A stretch of DNA of 64,000 bases, from NCBI RefSeq assembly GCF_009914755.1, contig NC_060936.1. One strand, written 5' to 3'. Below, piece by piece: positions 27,127-54,969 of the stretch; positions within the stretch are counted from its first letter, which is position 1; each line of letters starts with the position of its first letter. The position numbers were made by a program, and so were the translations under genes. The DNA is from the human T2T-CHM13v2.0 reference genome, Homo sapiens. The notes under the pieces were generated by a model, which did no database searches, had not been told where the DNA came from, and saw only the letters and a list, made by a program, of their open reading frames with translations.

Positions 27127-28290
27127 TCCCCCAGCCACCCCCCTAAAGGGGACCATGTGGTAGATGGTCTCTTTAGTCAGGGTGTGAGACCCGGGTAATG
27201 GGGAGAGGGTTTGTGGGGGCCAGAGCTCAGCAGTAGAGAAGGGAGGGTGTGTGGTTCACTAGGCTTGCCTGCCCCAGCCAGGCTCGGTGGAGTCGGGAGC
27301 CTCGAGGGTTTTCCCTGCTGAGGCTCTTCCTCCCCTGCTCCTCCTGGGGCAGTGGACACAGCCTCATCTCTCAGCATCCAATATTGTGCTGTGGTAGTTT
27401 CAGGGGCCCCCTTCTGCCAACCTCTCTCTCTCACTCTGTGCGTTAGCCTCTTGACTCTGTGGGCATCCCGGTCTTTCCAAGGACTCTGTAGCAGCCCAGC
27501 CTATCTAGGTGCTAAGTGCTCCTGGGAAGAAGAGAGGAAGACAGACCACCACGTCCCCAGGTACGGCCACACTCCTCTCCAGCCCAGGCAGGTGCATTCC
27601 CTCTGCTTCTCTCTGGCAGCGCCTGGTTCTGGAACTCGGCACTGCTCTGACCAGACCATCCAAGCGAGTGAGCAGGTACCTGGACCAAAGCACGTTTCTT
27701 GCACCTGCCAGCCGGTGGAGCAGCCCTGGAAGGTGCCAAGCCCATTTCTGGCTCTCGGGCCTTGGCCAGGGGTGGTGCCCAGGGGGTGCAGGAAGGATGA
27801 CCCTGGAACCACTCCTGGGTCTCCACCCTGACCATGGAAAGGGAAGGCTGACTCTTGCCGAGGGAGAGAAATGGTTTTCAGTGTTCTTTTTCTCAGCCCC
27901 CTTTTGTGTGCTGCAAAGGAGGGAAGCAAGTTGAGTTGGCAGCCCAGGGGAAGGGAGTGAGGCGGGGGCAAAGTTTCCCCTTGATTTGCCATATGACCTC
28001 GGAACATCTCCTTGGGCCTGGGCCACCTGTAAACTGAGGAGGGAGAAGCCTGCCTGCCCCTTGTCCTCTCTGCCTGGCCTCCTTGCAGTATATCGGAAGA
28101 ATCAGAGCCACCAAAACAGTCATAAGAGGGGGTGGTGGAGGCATTTGGCTGCATCTCCCAACCCCCAACACGCTTTGCTCACAGCACCTGGGTGTGGTGG
28201 GCAGACCGGCCCGTGGCACGGAGCCATCGTCAGCATGGATGCTGTATCTTATCTGCATTTTTGGTAACTGGTGGAGGTCTCCAATTCCTT

Positions 28291-28425
28291 GTACTGGAGA
28301 GTCTTTGCTGGGCGGATTTGGGCATTCTCCTGCCCAGCCCGCCTTGCCTTCTGACTGTGGCGCAGAGAGGAAGGTGGGGTGGGCAAGAGAATGCCCAAAT
28401 CTGCCCAGCAAAGATTCTTCAGTAT
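28291..28425 (+). other. Long inverted repeat / RNA hairpin (55-bp arms, extendable inward to a ~9-nt loop)
   Basis: 28291-28345 is the reverse complement of 28371-28425 at 48/55 positions. Confidence 0.93.
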
Positions 28426-28432
28426 CTCCCTC

Positions 28433-28829
28433 TATATTGGGCTATTCTTGCATTGCTATAAATAAATAACGTGAGACTGGGTGATTTATAAAGAAAAGAG
28501 GTTTAATTGGCTCATGTTTCTGTAGGCTGTACAGGAAGCATGGTGCCGGCATCTGCTTGGCTTCTGCTGAGGCCTCAGAGAGCTTTCAGTCATGGTGGAA
28601 GATGAAGGGGGAACAGGCACTAAACATGACAAAAGCAGGAGCGGGTGAGATTGCGGGGCGGGGGGTGGTGCCACACACTTTCAAACAACCCAGTCTTGTG
28701 AGAACTCACGATTGTGAGGACAGCATCAAGGGGATGGTGCTACCCCATGATCTAGTCGCCTCCCCACTTCCAGCATTGGGGGTTACAATTCAATATGAAT
28801 TTGTGGGGACCAATATCCAAACTCTATCA
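28433..28829 (-). mobile_element. MST (MSTB-like) MaLR solo LTR with 5-bp TSD CCCTC
   Basis: gagactgggtgatttataaagaaaagaggtttaattggctca...ggctgtacaggaagcatgg...atccaaactctatca; CCCTC at 28428-28432 and 28830-28834. Confidence 0.92.
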
Positions 28830-29772
28830 CCCTCTTCCCCACCTTTTCCCAGCTCCAGCTCCCCACCCCACTCTTTGAGAGCTCTGCAGCCTTCGCTGAG
28901 GTCAGGAGAACTTTGGCTGCCTTGGCAGAAGGCCCTGAACACTGTTTCCTTCCTGAGGATGCGTCCTCTTTCCCTGGGCAGGGAAAGAGGCAGATGGACA
29001 TCTGGCAAAATTTCCCACTTGAGAAGTTTGGGATTCCGAGCCCATTCCCCCCTCAGTGCCAGGGAACAGTAGCCCAATTGTTCCAAACCCGTGTTCTCTG
29101 GGTCAGTGTGCCTACATCCCTCCTGACCATGACACTCCCATTCCTGGGCCTAATAATAGCCCCTTTTGGGGTAGGGCAGAGCAAAACTTGAGTTTGTGGC
29201 TGTTCAGATCCATATGGTATCTTCCCCAGCTCCGCTCTCTGAATACCGCTTCACCATCCCACCAGCCTGCCATCCAGGTGGCTCAGAGGAACTGCCCTAG
29301 GACCAGGGGGGAAGACATCTCTGCTTTGTAGCCTCACTTGCTTCCTGGGGCAGAGGGAACAAGACCAGGACCGTTCAGGGGATAGTGGCGTCCTGGGTGA
29401 AGTGGGGCAGGTTCCAGGATAGATTTTCTGCAATGTGCTTTTGGCCGCTGGGAGGATGGGTGGTCTGAAAAGAGCACAGCCTGGGAGAATGGGTGGAAGG
29501 GAGGGTGCCTGTTTTTCAGGGCAGAGAAGAGGAGCAATGTACTGTGCACACATGGAAGGCACCCAGGACACGTTCACTGTGTCGAGCATCGTCGGGTTTA
29601 TTAAGAAGGTGTCTTGGGAATGACTGTGAGCATGTCCTAGGCCTGGCCCTGAGCAGTTAAGGTTATAGCAGAAAGGACTTGACAAAGGCCCGTGAAACTT
29701 ACTAAAGGCAGAGTCAGAGAGAGGAGCTGCGGTGACAGCTGCTTGTGGCTGATGAGCATTACTGGCCGGCCG

Positions 29773-53880: not shown

Positions 53881-54969
53881 TTCAGTTTGAGACAGGCCTG
53901 TTTTACTTGTTCTTAGTGGGCTTCTTGGGCAAAACTAGGATTGATGCATGTTAGCCACAGGGAAGTAGATTCTTGCATTAATAAGAAAGAATTCCTGGCT
54001 GATTAGAGGTATGCAGAAAAAAAAAAAAAAAGAAGAATGGAGTGCATTGTGGGATGGTGAGCATTCAGCCCCTGGGAGACCCGTGTGGCTGCATCCCACC
54101 CCATGGTTCCAAGGTGCTGTGGTCCTCCTACCTGCTGGGTGACTTCAGCAAAGATGTGTCTGTGACTTTGTCCCTTCATTTCTCTCCATGCAGAATTGGA
54201 GGCATCGTCTGCTCTCTTGCCTTCCCTGCCCCTCCTGCCTCTCCCTTTATGGCTGTGAGAATGAATGAGCTGCGGGGGCCCTTGGAGGCAAGGGGTGTCT
54301 GAAATACAAAGCAGCGGCTGCGCTCCTGGCACCGATGTATTGTCTCTGCTCCCCATGATGAAGTTCTTGGCAGGTCGGCTTCTTCCAGAGCCAGGCAGGT
54401 TCATTACTAGCCAGCATGTCAGGCTGTGAAATTAAAGCTGTTTTGGTTTTTTTCTTTTTTAAAAATTCTCCACATCCACTAATTTATTAAATGCCATTAA
54501 ATGTTGGGCCTGGCCTTGGCTCATAGAAACATTAGGGAGCACTCAGTCCTAGCATTTGAAAATTTCCTGCAAGCAAAAAGTGGATGAGGGTGTCAGGGGG
54601 GCCAGGTCAGGGGCCACCAGTGACATCTGATGCCAGAAGCCCAGGTGCCTTGTGGGGCTCTGCAGACACATGAGGCAGTGGGGATTAAAATAGGGCAGCA
54701 GAGGTGGGAGCAACCTGAGGGCACTGGGGGTTCCAGGAGTGGGGAAGACGGGGTGAAGAGGAGGCTGCTTTTTCAGGAGGATTTGCATGTCTGGGTCTGG
54801 TCCTGTTCCCCAGCTATGGCCCGCTCAGGCCCCTCCATCCATCCCCATCATTCATTCATTTATTCATTCCTCCAGCAAATATTTATCTAGTAATCCAGGC
54901 ATGTTCTGGGCCCTACAATGGAAGAAAAATGGATAAGACACAAACCTGGGTCCTGGAAGTGCATGTGTG

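What the first reader, a model, noticed from the sequence alone, without database searches (positions are those of the whole stretch)
28291..28425. Long intronic hairpin whose mismatches favour pairing on the sense strand
Seen: 55-bp arms (28291-28345 / 28371-28425) differ at 7 positions, and pairing continues inward (cct/tctg with caga/agg) to a ~9-nt loop. In + strand (TSPAN9 pre-mRNA) RNA, 5 of the 7 differences are G.U wobbles (G28291, G28297, G28301, G28314, G28341), one is a C.A mismatch (C28330:A28386) and one is G.G; the - strand would carry five A.C mismatches. The termini (TA-CTG...CAG-TA) are the reverse of Tigger/hAT MITE ends and I recognise no TE. Known: ADAR prefers an A opposite C, and long stems can feed Drosha/Dicer. 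Inference: a foldback duplication that may now act as a miRNA/endo-siRNA precursor, editing substrate or splicing-modulating structure. Caveat: two of the wobbles are explained by ordinary CpG decay. The hairpin ends 7 bp from an MST LTR.
Basis: partly seen in the sequence, partly recalled or inferred. Interest (0 to 1): 0.8.

Follow-up and report, generated by a model that had tools for sequence, protein, structure and literature searches.

The report
Single-copy intronic hairpin, probably neutral
A strong 63-base-pair hairpin in a TSPAN9 intron is real and is not a transposon, but it looks like an old one-off inverted duplication that has been drifting neutrally, with no sign so far that it makes small RNAs or is kept by selection.

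Summary
The arms are 28291-28353 and 28363-28425, with a 9-nt loop. Of 63 positions, 53 are Watson-Crick, 6 G.U and 2 A.C on the + strand, and 2 G.G. The + RNA folds at -110.8 kcal/mol (z -13) and the - RNA at -96.5.

The hairpin is single-copy in the T2T genome. A same-length control from the neighbouring LTR gave 4,644 candidates. The palindrome ends are sharp. The neighbour is a solo MaLR LTR, 28433-28829, with its own 5-bp target duplication, so the hairpin is not LTR-internal DNA. No Rfam family reaches threshold.

The sense-strand G.U excess is not significant: binomial P = 0.11-0.14, and 8% of neutral simulations reach it. It also points the way intronic mutation bias already pushes.

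Best reading: one foldback or template-switch inverted duplication tens of millions of years old, one of tens of thousands reported in primate genes, since decaying neutrally. ADAR binding is plausible but untested. A canonical miRNA is unlikely because the stem is 63 bp, not about 35. No primate genomes, small-RNA data or editing data were available.

The parts
28291..28353 (+). Left (5') arm of the hairpin; keeps two CpGs (28313-14, 28340-41)
28354..28362 (+). 9-nt spacer / apical loop
28363..28425 (+). Right (3') arm. It is the reverse complement of the left arm with 10 differences in 63. Both CpGs are TpG here.
28428..28432 (.). Left copy of the 5-bp target-site duplication (CCCTC) of the neighbouring LTR; lies 3 nt after the hairpin
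   Evidence: read directly; LTR ends fixed
28433..28829 (-). Solo MaLR-type LTR (context, not part of the hairpin).
   Evidence: 7,337 first-look candidates; 40 scored, 74-82% identity; copies align to positions 1-397
28830..28834 (.). Right copy of the LTR target-site duplication (CCCTC)

Best explanation
The hairpin is the product of one inverted-duplication event in unique intronic DNA. During replication or break repair the growing strand switched template, or folded back on itself, and copied about 63 nt in reverse complement. That left a perfect palindrome with a 9-nt spacer. The two arms have since picked up about 10 point differences by ordinary neutral decay, including CpG-to-TpG changes, over tens of millions of years. 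TSPAN9 is transcribed from the + strand, so every pre-mRNA carries a very stable 63-bp stem-loop. That stem meets the structural needs of dsRNA-binding proteins, ADAR above all, but nothing in the sequence shows that it is kept for any purpose. Shown: the structure, its uniqueness, its sharp ends, its independence from the LTR, and the lack of a significant strand bias. Inferred: the mechanism of origin, the age and the neutrality.
For: (1) Symmetric arms with a 9-nt spacer and abrupt loss of complementarity at both ends, 0 of 6 flanking positions pairing. This fits one copying event, not two independent insertions. (2) Single copy. A 155-nt BLAST against the 3.1-Gb genome found 1 first-look candidate, itself. 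A 30-mer and a 24-mer with up to 3 mismatches hit only the two arms, with reversed-pattern controls at 0. A 155-nt control from the adjacent LTR gave 4,644 candidates, and 40 of 40 scored matched: the query's own locus at 100% and 39 other copies at 86-89%. The left flank 27600-28290 is also unique apart from one 43-nt match. (3) The LTR has its own CCCTC target duplication at 28428-32 / 28830-34, and other copies align to its full 1-397. The hairpin is therefore flanking host DNA, not element-internal sequence. (4) The arms differ by 8 transitions and 2 transversions in 63, K2P 0.185. A sequencing or assembly palindrome would be perfect, so this is real and old. Two of four CpG copies survive, which fits neutral CpG decay at that divergence (inference). 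(5) The strand bias is within neutral expectation and in the direction of known intronic mutation bias. (6) The kind is documented. Template switching makes whole hairpins in one step, with events of 28 to 83 bases described. It is credited with 31,007 new RNA stems in human genic regions since the primate ancestor, and only 57 of 6,054 miRNA-sized ones (0.9%) are annotated miRNAs (PMC10710096, passages and section 9). (7) No Rfam family reaches its gathering score here or anywhere in the window, and the hub's RefSeq table lists no MIR gene in the window.
Against: No outgroup sequence was available. The event itself, meaning absence of the hairpin in an ancestor and a four-point template-switch solution, was not observed, and neutrality rests on small counts. 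The G.U excess, though not significant, is in the direction selection on the sense RNA would give. The stem has 39 contiguous pairs counting G.U, 94% of positions paired and a short loop. Those values resemble the edited class of non-repetitive human dsRNAs (medians 30 contiguous bp and 87.5% paired) more than the unedited class (14 bp, 75%), so a biochemical consequence is quite possible. Template-switch events of this arm length are at the upper end of what the paper describes. The genome search scores only the best candidates and may miss copies below about 80% identity.
Confidence: 0.7

Rival explanations
1. The hairpin is an unannotated young miRNA or endo-siRNA precursor, processed by Drosha and/or Dicer from the TSPAN9 intron.
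For: The stem is very stable. It lies in the intron of an expressed host gene, where young template-switch miRNAs are enriched (abstract). A UG sits at the basal junction (28290-91) and CNNC motifs lie just 3' of the stem (read). Rfam gives hairpin-shaped sub-threshold hits to 20 miRNA-model matches on the hairpin.
Against: All 20 Rfam matches are far below gathering (best mir-3160, 45.9 against 80 bits) and occur on both strands, so they reflect shape and not kinship. The stem is 63 bp with a 9-nt loop. Pri-miRNAs strongly prefer a 35-bp stem and a loop of 10 nt or more, and the paper's miRNA-size class stops at 55 bp. The base rate is 0.9% of suitable template-switch hairpins annotated as miRNAs. 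There is no MIR gene in the RefSeq table, and TSPAN9 does not appear in that paper's dataset S1. The arms are unique in the genome, so there are no extended trans targets.
Confidence: 0.05
2. The hairpin is a selected ADAR substrate or other dsRNA-binding-protein platform, and pairing on the sense strand has been preserved.
For: Six G.U to two A.C on the sense strand, which is 14 kcal/mol more stable than the antisense strand. Contiguity and percent paired resemble edited non-repetitive dsRNAs.
Against: The bias is not significant and is expected from mutation bias. Only 4,597 of about 497,000 predicted non-repetitive dsRNAs are edited. No paper found links TSPAN9 to editing: one search returned 1 paper, an unrelated review, judged from the listing only. 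Being edited would not by itself show selection.
Confidence: 0.07
3. The hairpin is a relic of a palindromic MITE or other DNA transposon, possibly with TA target duplication.
For: The structure is a perfect-style terminal inverted repeat. TA dinucleotides sit at both ends (28292-93, 28423-24).
Against: No other copy was found in 3.1 Gb at the sensitivities tried (control). Arms only about 16% apart imply an age at which sister copies would still be 85-90% alike and easy to find. There is no 8-bp or TTAA flanking duplication. The TA ends are part of the palindrome itself and prove nothing.
Confidence: 0.05
4. The palindrome is much older and predates the LTR. Its arms have been kept similar by arm-to-arm gene conversion or repeated template switching, not by a young age.
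For: Template switching between imperfect arms can homogenise them (abstract of PMC13100816, seen in the listing). The LTR clock cannot order the two events: per-copy LTR divergence runs from 0.08 to 0.21 depending on the segment, against 0.09 per arm.
Against: The differences are spread along the whole arm, with no long identical tract beyond 15 WC pairs. This gives no sign of recent conversion.
Confidence: 0.1

Closest known systems
Template-switch-mutation (TSM) hairpins of primate genomes (Monttinen, Frilander and Loytynoja 2023, PMC10710096)
   Same: A one-step reverse-complement copy that makes a near-perfect stem in unique, transcribed, intronic DNA. Later point changes add wobbles and mismatches; 105 of 111 loci in that paper gained such changes.
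   Different: The event was not observed here because no outgroup was available. The arm of 62-63 nt is above the 30-55 bp class that the paper counted as miRNA-sized, and no small RNA is known from it.
Palindromic miRNA loci such as mir-3160 (best Rfam match)
   Same: A long, nearly perfect hairpin that reads as a hairpin on both strands.
   Different: The score is 45.9 bits against a gathering score of 80, and equally weak hits go to about a dozen unrelated miRNA models. This is resemblance of shape only.
Edited non-repetitive intramolecular dsRNAs (dsRNAscan set, Andrews and Bass 2025, PMC11838218)
   Same: Intronic, non-repeat, short loop, 30 or more contiguous pairs, high percent paired. 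It lies 3.25 Mb from the chromosome tip, close to the zone where the paper reports enrichment of non-repetitive dsRNAs.
   Different: It is shorter (63 bp against a median of 144 bp for edited ones), and no editing data were seen.
MITEs / miniature DNA transposons (for example MADE1-type miRNA sources)
   Same: Terminal inverted repeats that fold into a hairpin.
   Different: Single copy, no family and no target-site duplication beyond an uninformative TA.

Membership tests
Template-switch / foldback inverted duplication | Adjacent reverse-complement arms with a short spacer and sharp, symmetric ends | tested here: met
   62-63-nt arms, 9-nt spacer, 0 of 6 flanking positions pair
Template-switch / foldback inverted duplication | Locus-specific event in otherwise unique DNA (no repeat family) | tested here: met
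   positive control
Template-switch / foldback inverted duplication | Hairpin absent in the ancestor; the change is explained by a four-point template-switch path | not testable with these tools
   no primate or other mammalian genomes are held; one search states the genome has no relatives here
Template-switch / foldback inverted duplication | Event length within the range described | tested here: met
   63 nt against described events of 28 and up to 83 bases
MITE / DNA transposon | Many dispersed copies | tested here: not met
   only this locus. Sensitivity is limited to roughly 80-87% identity or more.
MITE / DNA transposon | Target-site duplication flanking the inverted repeats | tested here: inconclusive
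   the 8 nt on either side do not match and there is no TTAA; the TA at both ends is part of the palindrome
Canonical pri-miRNA | Match to a curated miRNA family | tested here: not met
   best score 45.9 bits against gathering 80; nothing at gathering in the 64-kb window
Canonical pri-miRNA | About 35-bp stem with an unstructured apical loop of 10 nt or more | tested here: not met
   63-bp stem and 9-nt loop; criterion as quoted in PMC10710096
Canonical pri-miRNA | Discrete ~22-nt reads with fixed 5' ends; Drosha/DGCR8 dependence | not testable with these tools
   no small-RNA or CLIP data are held
ADAR substrate | Intramolecular duplex with about 30 or more contiguous pairs and a short loop in a transcribed region | tested here: met
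   39 contiguous pairs counting 4 G.U; the longest pure Watson-Crick run is 15. Whether that paper counts G.U as pairs was not checked.
ADAR substrate | A-to-G mismatches between RNA and DNA | not testable with these tools
   no RNA-seq is held; literature search found nothing relevant
MaLR element internal region | Hairpin lies inside the element, between LTRs | tested here: not met
   the 5-bp duplication CCCTC brackets the LTR alone, and the left flank is unique DNA

The most novel reading that the evidence does not exclude
The hairpin is a primate-born, template-switch-made structure caught early in gaining a function. It would be either an unannotated long-stem small-RNA locus co-expressed with TSPAN9, or a site-selective ADAR target at A28386 opposite C28330, with the sense-strand G.U excess as the first trace of selection for RNA pairing.
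Probability: 0.07. Interest if true: 0.5.

Novelty: new member of a known kind. Interest (0 to 1): 0.25.

Why it matters
If the reading is right, this is one more example of the raw material that replication template switching leaves in introns. It would be useful as a clean, single-copy, non-Alu test hairpin for questions about ADAR, Drosha and dsRNA sensing, but it is not a new kind of element. It would matter more if small RNAs or selective editing were found. Its 63-bp stem lies outside the size class normally screened for new miRNAs, so a positive result would show that screens capped at 55 bp miss some loci.

Tried and rejected
1. LTR-internal origin. Rejected because the LTR carries its own target duplication and the left flank is unique.

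2. Relative dating against the LTR. A first estimate made the hairpin about 0.6 of the LTR's age. I withdrew it after a segment-wise recount showed the LTR clock running from 0.08 to 0.21 per copy, and after the 155-nt control showed 86-89% identity in one part against about 75% overall. The order of the two events is unresolved.

3. A profile search of the genome with a sequence-only model of the two arms (model R1). This genome does not accept that kind of query, so copies below about 80% identity remain untested.

Dataset S1 of the template-switch paper has no TSPAN9 or chr12 entry. Its PDF supplements could not be read.

6. Literature. Three search combinations turned up no description of this hairpin: TSPAN9 + intronic + miRNA (8 papers, 6 listed, titles and abstract starts only, none on this locus), TSPAN9 + RNA editing + ADAR (1 unrelated review), and a general non-Alu hairpin search. 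These three searches are the only basis for saying I found nothing in print.

7. Assembly artefact. Rejected because the arms differ at 10 of 63 positions.

Full report
**What is there**

Reading the window and the repeat finder show an inverted repeat with arms 28292-28353 and 28363-28424. The arms are 62 nt, 85% complementary, and 9 nt apart. Over 28291-28353 paired with 28363-28425 there are 53 Watson-Crick pairs of 63. Six positions are G.U on the + strand, two are A.C on the + strand (G.U on the - strand), and two are G.G. The six positions outside the stem on each side do not pair at all (0 of 6), so the palindrome has sharp ends.

**Folding**

- As + strand RNA the 155-nt stretch folds at -110.8 kcal/mol. 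Shuffles average -52.8, z is -13.0, and 0 of 200 shuffles fold as well.
- The - strand gives -96.5 kcal/mol, z -11.2.
- As single-stranded DNA the value is -60.5 kcal/mol, z -12.7.
- The stem persists in a 601-nt context fold, in both the MFE and the centroid structure.
- It is the only inverted repeat in the 64-kb window with arms of 30 nt or more and a spacer of 100 nt or less.

**Is it a repeat family?**

No copy other than this locus was found.

- A 155-nt BLAST query against the 3.1-Gb assembly produced one first-look candidate, the locus itself, plus its own reverse match.
- A 30-mer and a 24-mer from the arm, each with up to three mismatches, hit only the two arms. Reversed-pattern controls gave zero.
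- As a positive control, a 155-nt query from the neighbouring LTR gave 4,644 first-look candidates. All 40 scored matched: the query's own locus at 100% and 39 other copies at 86-89% identity.
- The 691 nt to the left are also unique, apart from one 43-nt match elsewhere on the same chromosome.

Copies below roughly 80% identity therefore cannot be excluded. However, arms only 16% apart imply that sister copies of a transposon of that age would still be easy to find.

**Relation to the LTR**

The 675 nt to the right contain a MaLR-type LTR. The search gave 7,337 candidates, with the 40 scored at 74-82% identity. Other copies align to positions 1-397 of window 28433-28829. The pentamer CCCTC occurs immediately before the LTR (28428-28432) and immediately after it (28830-28834). 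This is the size of target duplication I recall for this class. The LTR is therefore a solo insertion into host DNA, and the hairpin, which ends 7 nt away, is not element-internal sequence.

**Age**

The arms differ by 8 transitions and 2 transversions in 63 sites, K2P 0.185, about 0.09 per arm. At recalled primate neutral rates of roughly 1-2 x 10^-9 per site per year this means tens of millions of years, with about a two-fold counting error either way. The hairpin is therefore not human-specific.

Two CpGs survive in the left arm and both are TpG in the right arm. Two survivors of four is about what neutral CpG decay predicts at this divergence; this is my inference.

I first estimated that the hairpin is younger than the LTR and then withdrew that estimate. 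Segment-wise LTR divergence runs from 0.08 to 0.21 per copy, which brackets the arm value.

**The strand-bias claim**

The counts are right but they do not carry the inference.

- I simulated perfect palindromes built from either arm, each given 8 transitions and 2 transversions symmetrically. The + strand was at least 14 kcal/mol more stable in 8.3% and 7.5% of 400 runs each. Either strand was that much more stable in 19% and 16%.
- The neutral expectation is itself tilted the same way. [quoted passage not shown] The sense strand of this window has G+T = 0.53.

**Known RNA families**

With permissive thresholds, 20 of the 27 Rfam matches fall on the hairpin. All 20 are miRNA models, they occur on both strands, and all are far below gathering. 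The best is mir-3160 at 45.9 against 80 bits. Nothing in the whole window reaches a gathering score. These hits show a generic hairpin shape, not kinship. The hub's RefSeq table lists no MIR gene in the window.

**Mechanism and base rates**

Template switching during replication can create a whole perfect hairpin in one event. Events of 28 and up to 83 bases are described (PMC10710096, passages). That study inferred 53,666 such events in human genic regions since the primate ancestor. Of these, 31,007 made a new RNA stem and 6,054 fell in the 30-55 bp miRNA size class. Only 57 of those 6,054 (0.9%) are annotated miRNAs (section 9). Its spreadsheet S1 has no TSPAN9 or chr12 entry, and its PDF supplements could not be read. 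The present stem, at 63 bp with a 9-nt loop, lies outside the preferred pri-miRNA geometry of a 35-bp stem and a loop of 10 nt or more, as quoted in that paper.

For editing, a genome-wide prediction found about 497,000 non-repetitive dsRNAs, of which 4,597 are edited. Edited ones have medians of 144 bp length, 30 contiguous pairs and 87.5% paired. Unedited ones have medians of 75 bp, 14 contiguous pairs and 75% paired (PMC11838218, passages and Table 1). This hairpin has 39 contiguous pairs counting G.U (15 pure Watson-Crick), 59 of 63 positions paired and a 9-nt loop. It looks more like the edited class in everything except length. I therefore rate detectable ADAR editing at perhaps one in three, given transcription. 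That would be a consequence of the structure, not evidence of function. That paper's own density figures disagree with each other ('2 per megabase' against half a million in total), so I use only the table counts.

**Other roles**

A splicing role is unlikely on position alone. The nearest annotated exon in the hub table begins at 54194, about 26 kb downstream. Because the arms are unique in the genome, any small RNAs would have no extended trans targets.

**Verdict**

This is a real and striking but ordinary object. It is a single-copy inverted duplication in a TSPAN9 intron, most likely born in one template-switch or foldback event in the primate lineage and drifting neutrally since. The selection-on-sense-strand argument does not reach significance. 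The functional ideas remain untested and have low priors. Literature searches turned up no description of this locus; I saw only listings for those.

Noticed in passing
window 28433-28829 with 28428-28432 and 28830-28834: A complete solo MaLR-type LTR in minus orientation with an intact 5-bp target duplication (CCCTC). Its divergence from other copies is very uneven: about 0.08 per copy in the first 100 nt and about 0.21 in the last 200 nt.
   Followed up: partly
window 27600-27642: A 43-nt stretch matches C12:31102824-31102866 (minus strand) at 91% identity. It is the only other genomic match of the otherwise unique left flank.
   Followed up: no
window 1-54000: The sense strand is G+T rich (0.53) with a T-over-A skew of 0.09. 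This is the compositional signature expected of a long-transcribed intron.
   Followed up: partly
window 1-64000: No Rfam family reaches its gathering score anywhere in the 64-kb window.
   Followed up: yes
window 28474-28487 / 28683-28696: A 14-nt, 86% complementary inverted repeat lies inside the LTR with 195 nt between the arms. It is probably a chance match.
   Followed up: no
window 28366-28382: The right arm carries closely spaced G runs that could in principle compete with the hairpin by forming a two-tetrad G-quadruplex in RNA. This was read by eye and not tested.
   Followed up: no
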